Counted from the first letter of the stretch, positions 31,312 to 58,115 are shown. The stretch: 64,000 nucleotides of DNA from a virus (IMGVR_UViG_3300046531_000473:5834-69833); one strand, 5' to 3'. The notes: generated by a model not told the origin, from the sequence alone. Numbers and translations: made by a program.

Positions 31312-31340
31312 ATTGTAACACACGAAGATGGCTTTGTCAA
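31312..31340 (-). promoter_or_regulatory. sigma70-type leftward promoter
   Basis: TTGACA-17-TACAAT. Confidence 0.8.
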
Positions 31341-32631: not shown

Positions 32632-32717
32632 TTGAATCCTCTTTCTTGTTTATCAAGCCAACAATTGACTTGCGCCTGCCGACTACTCACACAATCGGCA
32701 GAGACTAATCAACTAAA

Positions 32718-33007
32718 TTAATACCGTGCGAACTGACGTACACCGATGATCTTGCCCTCGACGCGATAGGCTGTTGGACCTGTATCAGGTGCCAAGATGT
32801 CGATACGTCCGCTAACAGCCTGAGCTACTGGCATACTCACCAGGATCAAGATTCCATCCTGTGGATCAGGAAGACCTTCGATTTTCCCAAATTTCGTCTG
32901 AAAGATCTTAATTCCTTCTACTTCTCCGATCTGCTAGGATACTCGCGGATAATTTGATTGTCCGCATCGACAACAGTAATGGTGTGTGGTGTAAGATTAA
33001 TGATCAT
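32718..33007 (-). pseudogene. Frameshifted small phage gene with N-terminal INLTPH motif
   Basis: MIINLTPHTITVV...EYPS in one frame; GEVEGIKIF...EGLPDPQDG..LVS...DILAPD...GKIIGVRQF* in another. Confidence 0.75.
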
Positions 33008-33035
33008 CTTGTCGGCCTTTCTGCTTTTGAGCTAT

Positions 33036-33092
33036 TCGGGTAATTTCACCCGAGACCGCGTACTACCTTCGCAATACGCGGGAACCGATGAA
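33036..33092 (-). ncRNA. Structured leader motif, copy A
   Basis: UUCAUCGGUUC, an 11-bp stem, UCU, then a CGGGU...ACCCG stem; homologous to the copies at 42.9-43.6 kb. Confidence 0.75.
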
Positions 33093-33112
33093 CTACTCGT
33101 GAGACTGTATAA

Positions 33113-33991: not shown

Positions 33992-34020
33992 AGTATAGCT
34001 CCAACGGTTGGAGTTGTCAA
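33992..34020 (-). promoter_or_regulatory. sigma70 promoter with palindromic operator in the spacer
   Basis: TTGACA-17-TATACT; spacer contains CTCCAAC-N-GTTGGAG (33999-34013). Confidence 0.85.
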
Positions 34021-34324
34021 TAGGCATAAGGTGTAATTGAGGCGATTTTTAGATTGCCTATCGTCTCGTTAGTACACGTAATGCACAAATATTGCACCCA
34101 ACGACATAACAGCAACACGGTGTAACGGTGACACCGTCGAGTACCGAGAGCCTCAGAGCGACAACACTCTAAAGCTGCTGCACGTTCAAACAGTATTGCT
34201 GCGGAACAGTGAAACTTTGGAACTGTGTTGCAGTCACAAAGGTTGCCCCTAGACGCAAAAAAGGACCGCGCCAATTTCTAGCACGGCCATGATGATGTTG
34301 CTGTTATGCTTCTTAAATGCTTTA

Positions 34325-35548: not shown

Positions 35549-36040
35549 TTATCTTACTGGAAACTGCACAAAGAAGCCTTGCAGCTCTGGCATGTCTTTG
35601 ACAATTTCAGGACGTGAGCACTCAGAAGCATCAAGAGCATTGTAGATGTCACGTGCATTTTGTTTCTCTTGCGCTTTGAGTTGTGTCTTCAGTGTCTGAT
35701 CTTGTGTTGATGCAATGTCAACATTGTTGTTCGATATGGCATCAAGATCGTTGCTGATCCTTGCCTTGTTCGATACCAAGTATTGCATGCTACACGTTGT
35801 AACATGGCGTTCACTGTTTGCTAGAGGAACTGCAAGATGATAATTGTACCATACTGCAAAGCCTGTACTGCCGATAGTGAATAGTACTGCAAGTGCCATA
35901 GTCACCAGGCACCCCATGCTTAGCCCTAGGAATGTTGTTTGGTCTTCATTCACGATAAATCTCCTCATGCTCAATATGAGCACTATATTCGAGCCTCTTG
36001 ACTCGCCTCTGCCAAGCTTTTCAGACTTGGCAAAAGCCAA
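35549..36040 (-). CDS. Single-pass membrane protein with coiled C-terminus (partner of the lipoprotein)
   Basis: Hydrophobic segment LVTMALAVLFTIGSTGFAVWY; true start uncertain. Confidence 0.6.
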   Translation of the reverse strand: MAFAKSEKLGRGESRGSNIVLILSMRRFIVNEDQTTFLGLSMGCLVTMALAVLFTIGSTGFAVWYNYHLAVPLANSERHVTTCSMQYLVSNKARISNDLDAISNNNVDIASTQDQTLKTQLKAQEKQNARDIYNALDASECSRPEIVKDMPELQGFFVQFPVR

Positions 36041-36046
36041 CCAGCG

Positions 36047-36427
36047 CTAGATCCAATTCAAGAGAAACTTGGCACGTAACGTCTGCATTACAAGATTATA
36101 GCTGTATTGTGAAGTACCTGGATAAATCCACCAACGCGATGCATGCGATGGCAACCTTGCTTCGTCTTCCTCTGCATAATCCTGGCCAGCTAAGAATATC
36201 AGCTCAGTGCCGTGTGCATCGCGATAATGATACTGCGCTGGTAGCGTTGCCAGCTTTGATTGCTTCGAGAATGTCATCGGACGCATATCGAATGCAAGGT
36301 GGAAGCCAATCTCTTCAAGGATTGCTGTGACTTCGCTCACTGATGGACATACGAGGCAGAACGCTTCAAGATTTGCGAGTTGTGCTATTACTTGTGCTAA
36401 CATGTTGTTTTCCTTTACTTTCGCCAT
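36047..36427 (-). CDS. Hypothetical protein
   Basis: 126 aa. Confidence 0.55.
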   Translation of the reverse strand: MAKVKENNMLAQVIAQLANLEAFCLVCPSVSEVTAILEEIGFHLAFDMRPMTFSKQSKLATLPAQYHYRDAHGTELIFLAGQDYAEEDEARLPSHASRWWIYPGTSQYSYNLVMQTLRAKFLLNWI

Positions 36428-41390: not shown

Positions 41391-41969
41391 TCAAACCTGT
41401 GTAGCCGATAACTCTCCATTAACGTCGGCGTACACACGAAACTCTCCAACTGTCTTTATTACAGAATTGCCGTATGCACTGCGTATGAATGGGATATTCA
41501 TCCAATCGTCTGTTTTTTCGTACAGAGCGAAACCACCCAGATTAATCGGTGCGCTTGTCTTATTGGATGTACTATCGAATTGACCGTTTAATCTTGTCAA
41601 TGAGTAAACACTCTTCATGCCGATGAAGTGCATGTATGGCTGTAACTCTACAACAGCGACTTGTAGGAACCAGCGATCACCTGCAATCTCATAGGTTTCC
41701 GCTTCTGTTCTCTCCGCCCTTTTCAGGGTTATCAGCAGAGTATGCGGTTTATTTTCAACAGCCACAGCGGTTACTGTTGCAACAAGCGTTTTCTGTGAGA
41801 ATGCAACGAATGTTTGGATGAAGAAGAAAACGGCAACGGCAAGGACGACTGCTATCAATCCAAAGAATTGCCTGCCAGACTTGCCAATCTTCATCCACAG
41901 CCATATCACTGCAATGACAGTCCAAATGGCAACGATCATTGGTATCCAGTCTTGAAAGTTCTTCATCAA
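41391..41969 (-). CDS. Membrane protein
   Basis: Two N-terminal TM segments followed by a soluble domain. Confidence 0.7.
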   Translation of the reverse strand: MMKNFQDWIPMIVAIWTVIAVIWLWMKIGKSGRQFFGLIAVVLAVAVFFFIQTFVAFSQKTLVATVTAVAVENKPHTLLITLKRAERTEAETYEIAGDRWFLQVAVVELQPYMHFIGMKSVYSLTRLNGQFDSTSNKTSAPINLGGFALYEKTDDWMNIPFIRSAYGNSVIKTVGEFRVYADVNGELSATQV

Positions 41970-42178
41970 TAATCCTCATCGGCATGAATATGCGGCTTGT
42001 CGCTAAAAATCTCGCATTCATCGCACCAATGCGTTTCTTTCACTTTTACAGCAACTACAGGCTCTTCCTTGATGCCCAGCAAAGCTTTGGCCGCTGATGT
42101 TGGCGTGGCCTTTGCTTTAGGCTGTACTGGCGTTGATGTAATGCCCATGCCTTTTCTGAGCAAATCTTTGTAACTCAT
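41966..42178 (-). CDS. Small protein with C-terminal CxxC/His motif
   Basis: HWCDECEIFSDKPHIH. Confidence 0.55.
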   Translation of the reverse strand: MSYKDLLRKGMGITSTPVQPKAKATPTSAAKALLGIKEEPVVAVKVKETHWCDECEIFSDKPHIHADEDY

Positions 42179-42315
42179 GGTTTTCTCCTCTTACTCCTAG
42201 ATGTCCTTCGTTTCTTCTGCCATTTTCTTTGCCACCTTTTGTGCTTGATGTATCCAAGAGTAAACGGCAGCATGAGGAGCGCATAGAGCACAAGGCCTAG
42301 CTGCTGATGTGACAT
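42175..42315 (-). CDS. 46-aa membrane peptide with polybasic tail
   Basis: MSHQQLGLVLYALLMLPFTLGYIKHKRWQRKWQKKRRTSRSKRRKP*; RBS AAAGGAG; ATGA overlap with the next gene. Confidence 0.55.
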   Translation of the reverse strand: MSHQQLGLVLYALLMLPFTLGYIKHKRWQRKWQKKRRTSRSKRRKP

Positions 42316-42365
42316 GCGCTTCTCCTTTGCTGCTCCACTAAAGATCTATCTCGTATTGATAATAC

Positions 42366-42626
42366 TTATAATGCGACCCTGCTCAGCTCACAATTCTGAT
42401 CGTAGCCGATCCATACACCCAGTATCCAGTCAGCTATGAAATTTCTGCTGTCTGTCTCGATCTCGATCACTTCTCCTACATGTAACTTTCCGGCTAGTTT
42501 GCCCGCTAGTGCTTCGTTTTTAAGCAGGAAAGTTCTGATCTTTCCGTTTCCCATACAAAGATCGATATGCGCTCTTACCTTCCCGCATCCGAATGCGATT
42601 ATGGTTCCTTTTGTTATTTCTTCCAT
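42366..42626 (-). CDS. Hypothetical protein
   Basis: MEEITKG...; RBS AGAAAGGA. Confidence 0.5.
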   Translation of the reverse strand: MEEITKGTIIAFGCGKVRAHIDLCMGNGKIRTFLLKNEALAGKLAGKLHVGEVIEIETDSRNFIADWILGVWIGYDQNCELSRVAL

Positions 42627-42697
42627 GTTAGTGCTCCGATCCTTTCTTGTGTCGAAGTTGGGCGCAATAGGCAGCGCCCGTGCCACTGATCGACGCG

Positions 42698-42892
42698 CTA
42701 TGCAGATTGTTGGCCGGACCGGATAATCTTAATGGCATACCCAATCCCATCACGCTCTTCCATTTTTTCAGCACTGGGGCGCTTGGCAAAGCTTTCCTCA
42801 GCAATCCTATGCATACGCTCTAATTTCTCAAGCGAAACTTCGCCTTTTTCAAATTTAGATAGCGCTATATCGCGAAAACTTGGTATCTCCAT
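42698..42892 (-). CDS. Small helical protein, array member 1 (ends QSA*)
   Basis: 64 aa; paralogous to 42993-43193. Confidence 0.75.
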   Translation of the reverse strand: MEIPSFRDIALSKFEKGEVSLEKLERMHRIAEESFAKRPSAEKMEERDGIGYAIKIIRSGQQSA

Positions 42893-42900
42893 GGTTTTAC

Positions 42901-42990
42901 CTTCTTTCTGCTATTTATAGCAATTGCCGGGTGAGCACATTGCACCCGATACTGCCAGCAACCATAGCCACTGGCAGGAACCGATGAAAG
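42901..42990 (-). ncRNA. Structured leader motif, copy B
   Basis: UUCAUCGGUUC, an 11-bp stem with three G-U pairs, UAU, CGGGUG/CACCCG, then GCUAUAAAUAGC and AGAAAGAAGG. Confidence 0.8.
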
Positions 42991-42992
42991 CG

Positions 42993-43193
42993 CTACGCAG
43001 ACTGATCTTTCCTTAAATGCACAAGTGCATCTGCAAGTGCATTACGTTGGTCTACAAGATCAGCGTCAACCGGATTGGCCCTGCACCTCTGAGAGGCTTC
43101 TGAATGCATCTTCTCGACGGTATCCATGGTAAATTTGCCACTTTTGACGAGCTTAATCGCCGTGTCGCGTCGAATCTCTTTGTCAGTTCTCAT
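42993..43193 (-). CDS. Small helical protein, array member 2 (ends QSA*)
   Basis: 66 aa; paralogous to 42698-42892. Confidence 0.75.
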   Translation of the reverse strand: MRTDKEIRRDTAIKLVKSGKFTMDTVEKMHSEASQRCRANPVDADLVDQRNALADALVHLRKDQSA

Positions 43194-43200
43194 TGTTTTT

Positions 43201-43290
43201 CTTCTTTCTGCTATTTATAGCAATTGCCGAATGAATACATTTCACCCGATGCTCTCAGCTCTCGATTGAAAACTGAGAGAAACCGATGAA
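43201..43290 (-). ncRNA. Structured leader motif, copy C
   Basis: Same architecture with a 12-bp first stem; 86/90 identical to copy D. Confidence 0.8.
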
Positions 43291-43294
43291 TGCG

Positions 43295-43510
43295 CTACGC
43301 AGACTGCTGAGGCTCTTGATCAAGCTCCCAGCCGGTTGATCCGTATGCTGCTAGGAAATCAATTTCCCGATCTGAATACAAATTCAGCACAGCTATATCC
43401 TTGAAATGTTCACCGCCTACTGAGGATGGTAGGATATCCCTAAGATGCTTCATTTCCTCTTCTTTTGAGGAAATGTCCTTATACACTTTAAAGTAATTGA
43501 ATTTTGGCAT
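43295..43510 (-). CDS. Small protein, array member 3 (ends QSA*)
   Basis: 71 aa. Confidence 0.75.
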   Translation of the reverse strand: MPKFNYFKVYKDISSKEEEMKHLRDILPSSVGGEHFKDIAVLNLYSDREIDFLAAYGSTGWELDQEPQQSA

Positions 43511-43515
43511 GGTCC

Positions 43516-43605
43516 CTTCTTTCTGCTATTTCTAGCACTTGTCGGATGAATACATTTCACCCGATGCTCTCAGCTCTCGATTGAAAACTGAGAGAAACCG
43601 ATGAA
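43516..43605 (-). ncRNA. Structured leader motif, copy D
   Basis: Near-identical to copy C. Confidence 0.8.
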
Positions 43606-43610
43606 ACGTT

Positions 43611-43880
43611 CTAGATCTTTTGTCTGCTCGATTGAAGAGACTGAAGCTGAGCCATGATATCCGTAATTCTATCTTGAGGGCTGGATGGAGCACTGTCTCC
43701 AAACGTATCCGAGGTTAGGTGGCGCTCCATGCACGATCCCAATTCGGGATGCGCTTGTCTTCGTACGCATTCATTTATCCAATAGTTGATGCTTCTGTCT
43801 GTCATGCGAGCGTTGACAATCCACTCGCTTTCGTTGATAAAGAGCTGCGTTGCCAGCCATGCTTCTGTTGGTGCTTTCAT
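43611..43880 (-). CDS. Small protein, array member 4
   Basis: MKAPTEAW...; start 43880 after the shared GCTAGAAATAGCAGAAAGAAGG block. Confidence 0.7.
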   Translation of the reverse strand: MKAPTEAWLATQLFINESEWIVNARMTDRSINYWINECVRRQAHPELGSCMERHLTSDTFGDSAPSSPQDRITDIMAQLQSLQSSRQKI

Positions 43881-43925
43881 TGTTTTGTCCTTCTTTCTGC
43901 TATTTCTAGCGCTTTTGTGTTGTTC

Positions 43926-43966
43926 CTCAGCACGATACTGAGAATTGGCAACTTGCGTCATGAACG
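43926..43966 (-). repeat. Second leader-motif family, copy E
   Basis: 30/41 identical to 45112-45152, with compensatory changes. Confidence 0.65.
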
Positions 43967-44004
43967 CTATGGAGCCTTGGCTATGCTCTAGTTGCCTGAT
44001 AGAT

Positions 44005-44205
44005 TTACGACCTTCTGAATTTTGAAGCTTCTTCTGGGTATGCCCTAGACAACTCATTTTGTTGTCTCTCGTACTCCTTAAAGGAGATTTCATCTTTTGA
44101 GAATTTTACGGTGATAATCGCACATTTCTTGGCAAACTTTTCAGAGACATGAAAATTATTCATGTAAGTTGCCATGGACGACTTTATCTCTTTAGACTCG
44201 AACAT
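44005..44205 (-). CDS. Hypothetical small protein
   Basis: 66 aa, RBS AAGAGG. Confidence 0.55.
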   Translation of the reverse strand: MFESKEIKSSMATYMNNFHVSEKFAKKCAIITVKFSKDEISFKEYERQQNELSRAYPEEASKFRRS

Positions 44206-44306
44206 TTGTGACCTCTTATAGCTACCTGGCTATGCTCTAGCTGCCTGTGTTTGCGCTACGCACTACAAATCTATCCTCAAATCGCCTAAGATGCTATTGA
44301 AAGAGA

Positions 44307-44579
44307 CTACACCACAGAGTCGGTATCAAGCTCTATTAGTAGATCTAGCATTTGTACTGCCTTCGAGTATTTCTCTAGTAATTCTTTTCTAGTGCTTGGT
44401 GTTGCGCCCCGTAGATCGTATTTATCCTGATCTACAAGGAAATCTCTACAGTACTTCGCGAACATGAGATACATCCTTGGTGGTGCATCATGCAAAATTT
44501 CATTTGCGACTTTTGTTGCCTCATCCTCACTAATTAACAACGCTTCATCCATTGTTCGTGTAAATTCTAATTCTGTCAT
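44307..44579 (-). CDS. Hypothetical protein
   Basis: 90 aa. Confidence 0.6.
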   Translation of the reverse strand: MTELEFTRTMDEALLISEDEATKVANEILHDAPPRMYLMFAKYCRDFLVDQDKYDLRGATPSTRKELLEKYSKAVQMLDLLIELDTDSVV

Positions 44580-44683
44580 TGTATGGCCTCTTTCTTGTTA
44601 TTATCTGCAACTATTGCAGAAGTGGCGAACGCAGCCATGAACTGCCGCTGTCATTAGCAGTATCGCCTTTTATCGTTGCTTGC

Positions 44684-45079
44684 TTACAGATCCTGCTTTA
44701 CTGCAACCAAGCAAACCTTGTCAATGCCTTTATTCCGTGCACATATCTCTATTGCTTCCTTTTCGTCTAGTGCAAACTGAGTTTCGATCAATTTCAGCTC
44801 TGCTCTCTCCTTGTGCTCTATCGCCAGCTTCACACTATCGTACTTCTGATACACTTTGAACTTCATGAACTTCTTAACTACATTTCTGTTCTTTGACTTC
44901 ACGCATGTTATACACCTTAATGCATAGCCATCGTGACTCTGCTTGTCCTTGTGGAAGTGCTTTTTATTGGCAGGTTTTGAGCAGCCACATACCTCACAGC
45001 GCTTCATCAAAAGCCCTTTATGACTTGCAGTCTGCTCAGGAATGCCAATGCCTTTTGTGTATTTATCTAAGAAAGCCAT
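44684..45079 (-). CDS. Zinc-ribbon protein
   Basis: KRCEVCG.SKP...F......DGYALRCITC, same ribbon type as the endonuclease N-terminus. Confidence 0.65.
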   Translation of the reverse strand: MAFLDKYTKGIGIPEQTASHKGLLMKRCEVCGCSKPANKKHFHKDKQSHDGYALRCITCVKSKNRNVVKKFMKFKVYQKYDSVKLAIEHKERAELKLIETQFALDEKEAIEICARNKGIDKVCLVAVKQDL

Positions 45080-45111
45080 GTGATTGATATGCCTCTCTCG
45101 TTATGCTTTAT

Positions 45112-45152
45112 CTCAACACCGTGTTGAGAATTGGTGACTCACGCAATGAACG
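45112..45152 (-). repeat. Second leader-motif family, copy F
   Basis: Covaries with copy E. Confidence 0.65.
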
Positions 45153-45352
45153 TGAAGAACGGCTGTCCGTTGTCACCTGTCTATCCTCTCGCGTTTAACC
45201 CGAACCTTCACACTTATTAAGGTATTGAGCATTGTAGGGGTATACTTCAGTAAGAATGCTGCGAGAAGCGCGATATTCTGTTGTGAATGTTCTACGGCAT
45301 GTTGCCCGATACTGCACACCAGTTGCCCAATGTGCAGGAACCGACAAACGCA

Positions 45353-45574
45353 CTATGCCACTTGACCAGCGATATACCGCGAGATATCCTCGCCTTGCAG
45401 CACGGTTACCTCAGTGGCATCGACCCACTGTCCACCGACAAACTCATACCATTCATAGTGCTTGTTTTGACGATCAAGCTTTGTGATGAGAGGCAATGCG
45501 GCCTCAAAGCTCTCAAACTCTACATTTTTCATGACGCCGTTGTTGTCACGGTATACGATCTCTTGCCTTGTCAT
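45353..45574 (-). CDS. Hypothetical protein
   Basis: 73 aa, coupled to neighbours. Confidence 0.5.
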   Translation of the reverse strand: MTRQEIVYRDNNGVMKNVEFESFEAALPLITKLDRQNKHYEWYEFVGGQWVDATEVTVLQGEDISRYIAGQVA

Positions 45575-46307: not shown

Positions 46308-46336
46308 ATTATAACTGACAGAAATGCGCTTGTCAA
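46308..46336 (-). promoter_or_regulatory. Perfect consensus sigma70 promoter (leftward)
   Basis: TTGACA-17-TATAAT. Confidence 0.92.
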
Positions 46337-46387
46337 TACTTTTTTGAACCAATATTTGCAATGTCAAAGAAATTGGTGTGAACTAGT

Positions 46388-49787: not shown

Positions 49788-49816
49788 ATAATAACATTTA
49801 TAGTGCTATTTGTCAA
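49788..49816 (-). promoter_or_regulatory. sigma70-type leftward promoter
   Basis: TTGACA-17-TATTAT. Confidence 0.8.
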
Positions 49817-49944
49817 TAGCTTTTAGCGTGCTTTTTGAAAACTGATAAAAATTGGTTTTCCACTCTAGAGGACTTGACAAACCACCACCTTACAAGTTAT
49901 TATTCTCATATCACTTAAAGTGCTTTTTAAAAGGAGACGAATCC

Positions 49945-56504: not shown

Positions 56505-58115
56505 ATGCATTATCTTGGTTTTGGTAAAAGATCGCAGTCTACACCACAGAGCGAGCCTATCCCAGGCTCTACTCAGATTGCAAATAATGCTGGGGGATTT
56601 TCGTGGTCGGTAGACGATTTGACGAGGCTAAATAGATTTCTTGTGTTAAGCAGTAACTCAGGTACATATTATGTCGGAGAAAGAAAGCTCACTCGTGAGA
56701 ATTTAGATGCAGTAGAGCGTATGCTCAAAAATGGTCAAGGAAAGCTTGTGGTCAATACCATTGCTGAGATATCTAAAGCTGGTCGGGCACCGTCAAACGA
56801 TCCTGCTCTCTTTGCTCTAGCTCGTTGTGCTGCTGCCGATGATCAAGAAGTACGCCAATATGCATTGTCAATCCTTCCACAAGTAGCGCGTACCGGAACT
56901 CACTTGCTGCATTTTGTTGCTTACACGAAGCAGTTTAGAGGATGGGGCCGTGCTTACAGACGTGCTGTTGCCTCGTGGTTTAATGAGAGGAGAGAGCAGA
57001 ATTTGGCTTACCAGCTTGTGAAGTATCAGCAGAGAGATGGGTACAGCCAACGGGATCTATTGAGACTTGCGCACCCAAAGGCCACAACGGATACATACAA
57101 TGCACTCTACCACTGGGTAACAAAGGGTTGGGAGAATGTAGGGAACGAACCTCATCCTGATCAGGCTCTCCAGATCATCTGGGCATACGAAAAGGCGAAA
57201 AGGGCTCAGGATGATAAAGAAGTGGCCTTACTCATCAAGGAGTACAGATTGCCTCGTGAAGCTGTACCGACTCAATTCTTGCACTCTACACGCGTATGGG
57301 AGGCACTTCTGGAAGAGATGCCAATGGAGGCGATGACTCGCAATCTCGCAACAATGACCCGTGAAGCAGTGATATTGCCGATGGGCGATATGACGCGGCA
57401 GATTGCAGAGCGGCTACGGAATCGAGATGCTATCATAAAGGCGCGATTGCATCCGATTAAGATTTTGTCTGCATTGACGACCTACCAGAGTGGCAAGAGC
57501 GTTCGTGGAAGCAATACTTGGACTCCTGTTCAGGCAATTGTTGACGCGCTAAACGATGCCTTCTATCTGTCTTTCAATAATGTAGATCCAACGGGAAAGC
57601 GCATTTTGCTGGCAATTGACACAAGCGGATCAATGCGTGGCGCTACTGTCAATGGTATCCCAAATCTTGCAGTCCATACAGCGGCTGGTGCCATGGCTTT
57701 AGTCCTGGCAAATAGCGAGACTAACTATCATATTATTGGTGTTGATACTTCAGTCCAAGATGTCCCTATTTCTCCAAAGCAACGGCTTGACAATGCTGTG
57801 CAGATCTTAAAGCAATACGGTGGCGGCGGCACAAATTTAGCATTACCGATGGAATATGCTCTACATAAGAACCTAGAAGTTGATGCATTTGTCATTTTAT
57901 CGGACAGCGAAACTTGGCAAGGCCATCAGCATCCTGTGCAGGCACTTCAAGAGTATAGAAGACAGATCAATGCAGAAGCGCGTATCATCAATGTCCAGAT
58001 GACAGCGACTCACGTTACCAACAACGCACCTGATGACAAAAGAGCATTAGAAGTATGTGGCTTTGATACGGCTATCCCAGAAATCATATCAGGCTTCATT
58101 CGTGGCGAGTTTTAG
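56505..58115 (+). CDS. rsr: Ro60/Rsr TROVE-domain RNA-binding protein with vWA domain
   Basis: NNAGGFSW...LNRFLVLSS..GTYY; RTGTHLLHF; GWGRAYRRAV; KYQQRDGYSQRDLLRLAHPK; LAIDTSGSM (MIDAS); VCGFD. Confidence 0.97.
   Translation: MHYLGFGKRSQSTPQSEPIPGSTQIANNAGGFSWSVDDLTRLNRFLVLSSNSGTYYVGERKLTRENLDAVERMLKNGQGKLVVNTIAEISKAGRAPSNDPALFALARCAAADDQEVRQYALSILPQVARTGTHLLHFVAYTKQFRGWGRAYRRAVASWFNERREQNLAYQLVKYQQRDGYSQRDLLRLAHPKATTDTYNALYHWVTKGWENVGNEPHPDQALQIIWAYEKAKRAQDDKEVALLIKEYRLPREAVPTQFLHSTRVWEALLEEMPMEAMTRNLATMTREAVILPMGDMTRQIAERLRNRDAIIKARLHPIKILSALTTYQSGKSVRGSNTWTPVQAIVDALNDAFYLSFNNVDPTGKRILLAIDTSGSMRGATVNGIPNLAVHTAAGAMALVLANSETNYHIIGVDTSVQDVPISPKQRLDNAVQILKQYGGGGTNLALPMEYALHKNLEVDAFVILSDSETWQGHQHPVQALQEYRRQINAEARIINVQMTATHVTNNAPDDKRALEVCGFDTAIPEIISGFIRGEF

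What the first reader, a model, noticed from the sequence alone, without database searches (positions are those of the whole stretch)
42698..43910. Array of short genes separated by a repeated, covarying two-hairpin RNA leader with switch-like architecture
Seen in sequence: three ~90-nt intergenic units (42901-42990, 43201-43290, 43516-43605) and a distant fourth copy (33036-33092) share, on the mRNA strand, UUCAUCGGUUY - stem 1 - YMU - CGGGUG(A/C)AAU..CG stem 2. The array copies continue with GCUA(U/G)AAAUAGC and the SD AGAAAGAAG(G); copy A has only a partial version of this block. Stem 1 differs in sequence between copies (CCGCGUAUUGC/GUAGUACGCGG; CUGCCAGUGGC/GUUGCUGGCAG; CUCUCAGUUUUC/GAGAGCUGAGAG) but keeps 11-12 bp. 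Its imperfect pairs are G-U on the minus strand and would be A-C on the plus strand, pointing to an RNA (or ssDNA) structure on the sense strand. The 5' UUCAUCGG mimics the 3' arm of stem 2, so the left arm UCGGGUGAA has two mutually exclusive partners. In the array the element starts a few nt after the upstream stop codon. Inference: a cis-regulatory RNA (translation-coupled switch, protein-binding or processing site, or antiterminator) and/or a recombination unit for shuffling small gene cassettes. I recognise no named RNA family here.
Basis: partly seen in the sequence, partly recalled or inferred. Interest (0 to 1): 0.88.

Follow-up and report, generated by a model that had tools for sequence, protein, structure and literature searches.

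The report
Two-state RNA hairpin between phage genes
An uncultivated soil phage and its relatives carry a repeated, strand-specific RNA element right after the stop codons of genes inside long operons; one conserved segment can pair with either of two partners, and the element most resembles the RNase III cutting sites between the early genes of phage T7, although its function has not been tested.

Summary
The window belongs to a 69.8-kb IMG/VR tailed-phage contig. It holds seven copies of the element, not four. All lie on the minus (coding) strand, 0-7 nt after a stop codon, inside two operons driven by consensus sigma-70 promoters. Eight more copies occur in two related ~95-kb phage contigs and one metagenome fragment.

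Across the 15 copies, a long irregular hairpin (lower helix P1 plus an 11-12 bp stem 1) is 96% paired, and 15 of 18 pairs show changes on both sides. The alternative stem 2 uses the same 3' box as P1 and also changes in a compensatory way. The "two mutually exclusive partners" architecture is therefore under selection.

There is no Rfam match, no -35/-10 promoter, no U-tract terminator, and no conserved loop core as expected of a riboswitch or ribozyme. Nucleotide similarity between phages stops exactly at the flanking stop and start codons, and the flanking genes are unrelated.

Best reading (about 0.4): a T7-like intercistronic mRNA processing and stability signal that refolds after cleavage or when a terminating ribosome melts P1. 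It also serves as a recombination junction for small ORFan cassettes. The function is inferred, not shown. I rate it a new variant of a known kind.

The parts
45281..45357 (-). Copy E (type I core only). Stop codon, 5' box, stem 1, 3' box and a short stem 2. It has no small hairpin or SD, and about 200 nt of non-coding sequence follow before the next gene (ATG at 45079).
   Evidence: (66 bits). Its stem 1 is identical to copy G of L135. Its box changes are compensatory for both P1 and stem 2.
43540..43615 (-). Copy D core (type I): stop codon, 5' box, stem 1, 3' box, stem 2.
   Evidence: (78 bits).
43511..43539 (-). Start-associated block of copy D: a 4-bp hairpin with a GAAA loop, then the purine-rich SD, ending at ATG 43510.
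43225..43299 (-). Copy C core (type I). It is 96% identical to D over 90 nt. C and D flank the 71-aa gene as direct repeats.
   Evidence: (84 bits).
43194..43224 (-). Start-associated block of copy C (hairpin with UAAA loop plus SD), ending at ATG 43193.
42925..42997 (-). Copy B core (type I). Its stem 1 is identical to copy F in metagenome contig L135.
   Evidence: 93% identity over 90 nt to L135; 87.6 bits.
42893..42924 (-). Start-associated block of copy B, ending at ATG 42892.
43881..43910 (-). Orphan start-associated block (small hairpin plus SD) before the 89-aa gene, without the stop-associated core. It shows that the two modules are separable.
   Evidence: (family D2).
42627..42697 (-). 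Possible degenerate relative after the last QSA gene. It has the same UAGCGC stop context and a shorter irregular hairpin, but no stem 2. The models do not detect it.
   Evidence: sequence. No hit.
35987..36053 (-). Copy L (type III), directly after the in-frame TAG of a 126-aa gene in the same operon. A third hairpin and a GAGGAG SD follow.
   Evidence: (21.4 bits, E 7e-4).
33034..33102 (-). Copy A (type I). The stop codon abuts the 5' box, and the 3' block is only partial.
   Evidence: (64 bits).
32651..32722 (-). Copy A' (type II boxes), one gene downstream of A. It is 89% identical over 75 nt to copy J of related phage G001.
   Evidence: 59 bits.
42698..43880 (-). Four small ORFan genes separated by copies B, C and D: 64, 66, 71 and 89 aa. 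The 64- and 66-aa proteins are diverged paralogues. Three of the four end in QSA.
46308..46336 (-). Consensus sigma-70 promoter (12 of 12 matches) that heads the operon containing E, D, C, B and L.
33992..34020 (-). Sigma-70 promoter (11 of 12 matches) that heads the operon containing A and A'. It is preceded by an intrinsic terminator at 34264-34288.

Best explanation
The element is a cis-acting intercistronic RNA in polycistronic phage transcripts made by the host RNA polymerase. Shown: the 5' box sits 0-7 nt after the upstream stop codon. It pairs with the 3' box (helix P1, 6-12 bp) around a small internal loop and a sequence-variable 11-12 bp stem 1. Together these form a long irregular hairpin of about 16-22 bp. 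The same 3' box can instead pair with a downstream arm to form stem 2. Both pairings are kept by compensatory change. Inferred: the long hairpin is a processing signal of the kind RNase III cuts in T7 early mRNA. A cut on the 3' side of the internal loop would leave the upstream cistron ending in stem 1, which would protect its 3' end. The downstream cistron would then begin exactly with stem 2, a 5'-terminal hairpin, followed by the small hairpin and the purine-rich ribosome site. A ribosome terminating at the adjacent stop codon must melt P1, which favours stem 2, so translation of the upstream gene could gate or time the cut. Because the 75-110 nt units are near-identical repeats bounded by a stop and a start codon, they also serve as homologous-recombination junctions at which small ORFan genes are swapped.
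For: Structure: with 15 copies, 96.2% of cells are paired against 72.6% in shuffles and at most 46% when partners are slid. 15 of 18 pairs change on both sides, and 0 of 500 shuffles reach any of the five measures. For stem 2, all of the first six pairs are canonical in the 14 copies tabulated, with compensatory changes at positions 2, 3, 5 and 6. Two states: masking 13-16 nt after the stop codon flips the minimum-energy fold from P1 to stem 2 in the copies that fold P1 when free; three (F, G, K) already lack it. The cost is 2-8 kcal/mol. Context: all copies lie on the coding strand, inside operons with 11-12 of 12 sigma-70 promoters and true terminators elsewhere. Copy E keeps its position at the stop codon although the next gene lies about 200 nt away. 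Direct comparison: the T7 intergenic regions known to hold sites R0.5, R1, R1.1 and R1.3 fold the same way. They have a lower stem starting at the stop codon, an internal loop and a roughly 10-bp upper stem, with the SD and AUG 20-40 nt further on, and they are repeated between small early genes. Mosaic junctions: similarity to L135 and G001 is confined to the element (89-93% nucleotide identity), while flanking ORFs share no detectable protein similarity. In G007 the element follows a gene that has none after it in G001.
Against: No RNA ends, no cleavage data and no host are known. Some type III copies have only a 7-9 bp stem 1 and a weak P1, which is short for RNase III. T7 sites conserve the sequence of the upper stem, whereas here it is the variable part. 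The invariant U.G pair, the purine-purine mismatch and the recurring wobble pairs near the top of stem 1 (U.G at pair 8 in 10 of the 13 copies aligned there) are not known RNase III determinants, and they could mark a different protein partner. Covariation rests on few independent lineages, and the alignments were fitted to the model. The evidence from metagenome contigs for variants is low-depth and could include assembly joins at repeats.
Confidence: 0.4

Rival explanations
1. It is a translation-termination-coupled switch with no cleavage. The ribosome finishing the upstream ORF opens P1, the 3' box moves into stem 2, and this change sets how efficiently the next cistron is translated (coupling or insulation of neighbouring cistrons).
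For: The stop codon lies 0-7 nt from P1 in all 15 copies. UAG is the stop in 11 of 15, often followed by C. Masking the ribosome footprint flips the fold. Both pairings covary.
Against: The predicted accessibility of the SD and start codon changes inconsistently between the two states: it rises in A, B, C, G and K, and stays flat or falls in A', D, H and J. Copy E has no downstream SD to control.
Confidence: 0.2
2. It is a binding site (RNA operator) for a phage- or host-encoded RNA-binding protein that recognises the invariant features: a G-C pair, a purine-purine mismatch, a U.G wobble and the wobble pairs in stem 1.
For: The G-C pair and the U.G pair of P1 are invariant in 15 of 15 copies. 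The neighbouring mismatch changes from G.G to A.A in concert. U.G occurs at stem-1 pair 8 in 10 of the 13 copies aligned there. Element sequence is more conserved between phages (89-93%) than the neighbouring genes.
Against: No candidate protein is linked to the element. The three sequence types coexist in one genome, which would need a tolerant binder or several binders. The second pairing (stem 2) is left unexplained.
Confidence: 0.12
3. It is a passive 3'-exonuclease barrier or mRNA stabiliser like bacterial REP elements. Stem 1 alone matters, and the box pairings are by-products.
For: Stem 1 is a stable hairpin placed right after stop codons, and only its structure is conserved.
Against: This does not explain the three-way covariation of the 5' box, 3' box and 3' arm, or the conserved geometry of the internal loop.
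Confidence: 0.1
4. It is primarily a DNA-level element: a mobile or recombination cassette boundary (PeSL-like, MITE-like or attC-like) whose hairpins act in single-stranded DNA or as a promoter-terminator pair.
For: The unit runs from stop codon to start codon, as PeSLs do (PMC2839356). The flanking genes differ between phages. Contigs from other rhizosphere samples break or join at the elements.
Against: The scans find no sigma-70 -35/-10 pair in the element, while the phage has consensus promoters elsewhere, and no U-tract follows any stem. The candidate extended -10 lacks the final T. No attC core motifs were seen by eye. All 15 copies have one orientation relative to translation, with G.U pairs on the sense strand only. 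No transposase or integrase lies next to the array.
Confidence: 0.08

Closest known systems
RNase III processing signals of phage T7 early mRNA (R0.3, R0.5, R1, R1.1, R1.3)
   Same: Both are repeated between small early genes in an operon read by host RNA polymerase from strong sigma-70 promoters. Both begin at or next to the upstream stop codon. Both form an irregular hairpin with a lower stem, an internal loop and a roughly 10-bp upper stem, followed by the SD and AUG (folds of T7 intergenic regions).
   Different: T7 conserves the sequence of the upper stem, whereas here it is hypervariable and only its shape and wobble positions are kept. Here the 3' strand of the lower stem has a second, covarying partner (stem 2). 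Cleavage has not been shown.
PeSL regulatory cassettes of T4-type phages (PMC2839356, PMC4122927)
   Same: Both are composite intergenic cassettes running from the upstream stop codon to the downstream SD and start. Both contain a stem-loop with G-T/G-U pairs, are concentrated among small ORFan genes, and sit at junctions of insertions, deletions and replacements between related phages.
   Different: PeSLs are defined by a strong sigma-70 early promoter plus a terminating stem-loop. This element has no -35/-10 pair and no U-tract, and it lies inside operons.
SAS/ESAS repeats of Cluster K mycobacteriophages (PMC3203893; function still open in PMC12699233)
   Same: Both have a conserved block containing the SD just upstream of start codons, often preceded by an inverted repeat with a variable spacer. 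Both are repeated many times per genome, in one orientation, with unknown function.
   Different: ESAS inverted repeats are conserved in sequence, at 17 bp each. Here the main stem varies and the conserved parts are the flanking boxes. The core here is tied to the stop codon rather than the start. No alternative pairing is described for ESAS.
Bacterial REP/BIME elements
   Same: Both are repeated extragenic hairpins between cistrons that can stabilise upstream mRNA. When close to a stop codon they interact with the terminating ribosome (from general knowledge, not tested here).
   Different: REPs are about 35-nt palindromes conserved in sequence and mobilised by RAYT transposases. This phage shows no such enzyme or consensus.

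Membership tests
Any Rfam 15 family | Score at or above the family's gathering threshold | tested here: not met
   0 matches in the whole window at gathering thresholds. On 42600-43950, only chance-level hits with E above 1 to unrelated snoRNA and lncRNA models.
T7-type RNase III processing signal | Irregular hairpin of about two helical turns with an internal loop, between cistrons of a polycistronic mRNA | tested here: met
   P1 (6-12 bp), an internal loop and stem 1 (11-12 bp) in types I and II. T7 sites folded for comparison. Some type III copies are shorter.
T7-type RNase III processing signal | Cleavage by RNase III at a defined position | not testable with these tools
   No RNA run holds the sequence. 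In vitro cleavage or end mapping is needed.
PeSL (T4-type promoter-early stem-loop) | Sigma-70 consensus -35 and -10 boxes within the cassette | tested here: not met
   Promoter scans give no hit inside any copy, while the same scan finds 11-12 of 12 promoters elsewhere in the phage.
PeSL (T4-type promoter-early stem-loop) | Located at junctions of gene insertion, deletion or replacement between related phages | tested here: met
   Similarity to L135, G001 and G007 is limited to the element, and the flanking ORFs are unrelated or rearranged.
Intrinsic terminator | GC-rich hairpin followed by a U-tract | tested here: not met
   No terminator-like site on the minus strand in 41500-45500. Stem 1 is followed by three variable nucleotides and the 3' box, not by a run of U.
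SAS/ESAS (Cluster K mycobacteriophages) | 13-nt SAS consensus with at most two mismatches, next to start codons; 17-bp sequence-conserved inverted repeats | tested here: not met
   The SD block and the boxes here differ in sequence, and the main stem is not sequence-conserved. The definition is taken from PMC12699233 and PMC3203893.
Riboswitch or self-cleaving ribozyme | Conserved unpaired core nucleotides forming a ligand pocket or active site | tested here: not met
   Loops and linkers vary. The stem-1 loops differ between copies and the 3' linker shows nine different sequences. The conserved positions lie in helices.
Integron attC site | R''/R' core sites (RYYYAAC and GTTRRRY) and a nearby IntI integrase | tested here: not met
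   Inspection of copies B and C on both strands shows no such cores. No integrase-like protein was found among the large ORFs scanned.

The most novel reading that the evidence does not exclude
The element is a ribosome-sensing, bistable RNA "punctuation mark". Termination of the upstream ORF decides which of two covarying helices forms, and this decides whether the junction is cut or bound and how long each neighbouring cistron survives. The same unit is the portable linker by which this phage group shuffles ORFan genes. It would be a modular stop-associated regulatory RNA class with several coexisting specificity types (I, II, III).
Probability: 0.2. Interest if true: 0.8.

Novelty: new variant of a known kind. 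Interest (0 to 1): 0.6.

Why it matters
Intercistronic control in phage operons is known mechanistically from only a few model phages, such as the T7 RNase III sites, T4 RegB and the PeSLs. Here an uncultivated soil-phage group shows a well-supported RNA structure family in which three segments covary, so two exclusive folds are both maintained. The element is welded to stop codons and sits at mosaic junctions. It gives a concrete, testable case for how translation, mRNA processing and gene shuffling can be tied together in one roughly 100-nt unit. It also provides a covariance model for finding more members in viromes.

Tried and rejected
Rfam gave no family, either at gathering thresholds on the whole window or in permissive mode on the array.

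Loose two-box patterns in IMG/VR, metagenomes and GTDB genomes returned mostly chance hits. These lack the hairpin and score only 12-27 bits because they were selected for the boxes. Only L135 was a true hit.

Strict type I patterns and the 3'-block pattern found nothing in IMG/VR. Type II and type III pattern scans returned 13 stretches; apart from the two in already-known G001, only one (in G007) was real.

Relative L124 (62% aa identity in the neighbouring ATPase) and four portal-related contigs have no copy, but these are fragments.

No RNA holder is listed among sequencing runs. Laid DNA contigs are short and low-depth.

SD sequestration in either state is not consistent. Read-through of the stop codon was considered: the frames after the stop differ between copies, and D ends within the 3' box, so no conserved extension exists.

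The small proteins have no Pfam or PHROG family. The host could not be named: the nearest isolate portal proteins are at most 37% identical.

Full report
WHAT THE WINDOW IS. The window is bases 5834-69833 of a linear 69.8-kb IMG/VR virus record estimated to be 77% complete. It encodes a portal protein, a large terminase, a head protease, primase-helicases, ParB-methyltransferases and a Ro60-like RNA-binding protein. The nearest isolated phages share at most 37% portal identity, so the host is unknown.

THE OBSERVATION. The repeat finder returns the three 90-nt units with 300 and 315 nt spacing. The minus-strand sequence shows each unit filling the gap between two small genes. The fourth copy is at 33092-33036. 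The two-box pattern occurs four times on the minus strand of the whole record and never in the reversed control.

Three further copies came from comparison with a relative and from covariance models:
- E at 45357-45281
- A' at 32722-32651
- L at 36053-35987
These rest. A search of the whole record finds these seven and no others.

An isolated copy of the 3' block (a 4-bp hairpin with a G/UAAA loop, then the purine-rich SD) precedes the 89-aa gene at 43910-43889. Copy E has the core but no 3' block. The unit is therefore built from a stop-associated core and a separable start-associated block.

GENOMIC CONTEXT. The phage has textbook sigma-70 promoters on the minus strand at 46336-46308 (12 of 12 matches, with an A-rich upstream region), 34020-33992 and 31340-31312. 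It also has true hairpin-plus-T-run terminators, for example at 34288-34264. No promoter-like or terminator-like site lies inside any copy. E, D, C, B and L lie in the operon that starts at 46336. A and A' lie in the one that starts at 34020. The elements are therefore intercistronic parts of long mRNAs.

RELATIVES. A strict pattern scan of metagenomes gave one true hit among chance hits: contig L135, 3.5 kb. L135 carries two type I copies, F and G. Their stem 1 sequences are identical to those of window copies B and E respectively. L135 also carries two diverged copies, H and I.

BLAST of L135 against the window aligns only the elements: 93% identity over 90 nt and 92% over 52 nt. None of the L135 ORFs has protein similarity to the window.

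Portal-related IMG/VR contigs were searched with the models. G001 (94.5 kb, portal 62% identical) has copies J and K. J is 89% identical to A' over 75 nt. That similarity starts after the stop codon and ends before the start codon. The two adjacent genes are different, although the wider neighbourhood is syntenic at 56-74% aa identity.

G007 (95.5 kb) has copies M and N. M directly follows the homologue of a gene that has no element after it in G001.

STRUCTURE. Aligned to the model, the 15 copies give 96.2% standard pairs, against 72.6% in column shuffles and 26-46% when partners are slid by 1-3 columns. 15 of 18 pairs change on both sides, and 0 of 500 shuffles reach the observed values (smaller sets).

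Stem 1 (11 pairs) is 98.7% paired, and all 11 pairs show double changes. Pair 8 is U.G in 10 of the 13 copies aligned there, and pair 10 is a G.U or U.G wobble in 13 of 14.

Read from the stem-1 side, P1 is:
- an invariant G-C pair
- a purine-purine mismatch (G.G, or A.A in type II)
- a C-G or U-A pair
- an invariant U.G pair
- Watson-Crick pairs that covary (A-U/G-C and C-G/G-C/U-A)

Three sequence types exist. The boxes are UUCAUCGG with CGGGUGAA in type I, UUGAUUAG with CAAGUCAA in type II, and a UUGG-ending box with CGAGUC in type III.

Stem 2 pairs the same 3' box with a downstream arm. In the 14 copies tabulated, the first six pairs are all canonical. Exchanges occur at position 2 (G-C/A-U), position 3 (G-C/A-U), position 5 (U-A/U.G/C-G) and position 6 (G-C/C-G). 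Copy E keeps a bulged version.

The three segments therefore change in concert. This is the signature expected if both folds matter. Two caveats apply. The number of independent lineages is small, and the alignments were fitted to the model.

ENERGETICS. RNAfold prefers P1 plus stem 1 in most copies and stem 2 in a few. Forbidding pairing of the first 13-16 nt after the stop codon imitates a terminating ribosome. It switches to stem 1 plus stem 2 every copy that folds P1 when free (F, G and K already lack it), at a cost of 2-8 kcal/mol. The predicted accessibility of the SD and start codon does not change in a consistent direction.

WHAT IT IS NOT.
- It matches no Rfam family.
- It is not a sigma-70 promoter or an intrinsic terminator.
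- It is unlikely to be a riboswitch or ribozyme, because loops and linkers are not conserved.
- It is not an attC site: the cores are absent by inspection and no integrase was found.
- A DNA cruciform or protein site read on both strands is unlikely, because the wobble pairs exist only on the sense strand and all copies share one orientation relative to translation.

WHAT IT MOST RESEMBLES. I folded the T7 intergenic regions that hold the classical RNase III sites. They show the same layout:
- a lower stem that starts at the stop codon
- an internal loop
- a roughly 10-bp upper stem
- an SD and AUG shortly after
- repetition between small early genes transcribed by host polymerase

That T7 transcripts are cut there, and that the 3' hairpin stabilises the upstream message, is established knowledge (Dunn and Studier). 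It was not tested here.

On this analogy the long hairpin would be the processing signal. If the cut falls in the 3' linker, as in T7 R1.1, the downstream RNA would begin exactly with the first base of stem 2. This offers a reason for keeping the second pairing: it would form a protective 5'-terminal hairpin. The closeness of P1 to the stop codon means a terminating ribosome must open it, so translation could gate the event. These steps are inference.

SECOND ROLE. PeSL cassettes of T4-type phages also run from stop codon to SD and start, contain stem-loops with G-T pairs, cluster among ORFans and mediate modular shuffling (PMC2839356). The present element shares the placement and the mosaic junctions, but not the promoter that defines a PeSL.

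Cluster K SAS/ESAS repeats are another start-linked repeat of unknown function (PMC3203893 and PMC12699233).

Contigs from four rhizosphere or root metagenomes carry parts of the array at 90-100% identity. They break off or join differently at or beside the elements, for example at 42933, 43541 and 45354, with joints 43997 to 45353 and 43504 to 43943. These are short, low-depth contigs, and repeats invite assembly joins, so I treat this as weak support only.

VERDICT. The switch-like architecture is supported by covariation. The function is open. My ranking:
- T7-like processing and stability signal with refolding, about 0.4
- termination-coupled translational switch, about 0.2
- protein operator, about 0.12
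- passive exonuclease barrier, about 0.1
- DNA-level cassette element, about 0.08
The remainder is unassigned. I rate it a new variant of a known kind.

Noticed in passing
window 32718-33007 (-): The gene after copy A is split. An ATG at 33007 opens a 29-codon frame that ends in TAG near 32920. The rest of the protein continues in another frame to the stop at 32718. This could be a frameshift, a pseudogene or a sequencing error.
   Followed up: partly
window 43978-43998 and 44227-44247: A second intercistronic repeat of 21 nt (95% identical) lies after the stop codons of two other small genes. One metagenome contig joins 43998 to 44263, which skips the 66-aa gene between the two repeats.
   Followed up: partly
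window 46308-46345 (-), 49788-49816 (-), 49874-49903 (+), 31312-31340 (-): Near-perfect sigma-70 consensus promoters. The one at 46336 has an A-rich upstream tract. The host polymerase therefore probably reads canonical -35/-10 promoters.
   Followed up: partly
L124 2484-2530 (+): A relative lacking the element has an exact copy of the 10-nt 5' box followed by a 9-bp hairpin, but on the strand opposite to the flanking genes. This may be chance (expected about 0.04 per locus) or a remnant.
   Followed up: no
window 44684-45079 (-): The 131-aa protein downstream of copy E has weak PHROG matches to endonuclease VII and Lar-like zinc-ribbon proteins (E 1e-5).
   Followed up: no
all 15 copies (alignment A7): The upstream stop codon is UAG in 11 of 15 copies, often in the context UAGCGC. 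In L135 copy G this hexamer is kept although the gene appears to end at a TAA just before it.
   Followed up: partly
window 56505-58115 (+): The Ro60-like protein matches PHROG 850 'RNA-binding protein' (E 6e-74). The phage therefore invests in RNA metabolism. No link to the element was found.
   Followed up: no
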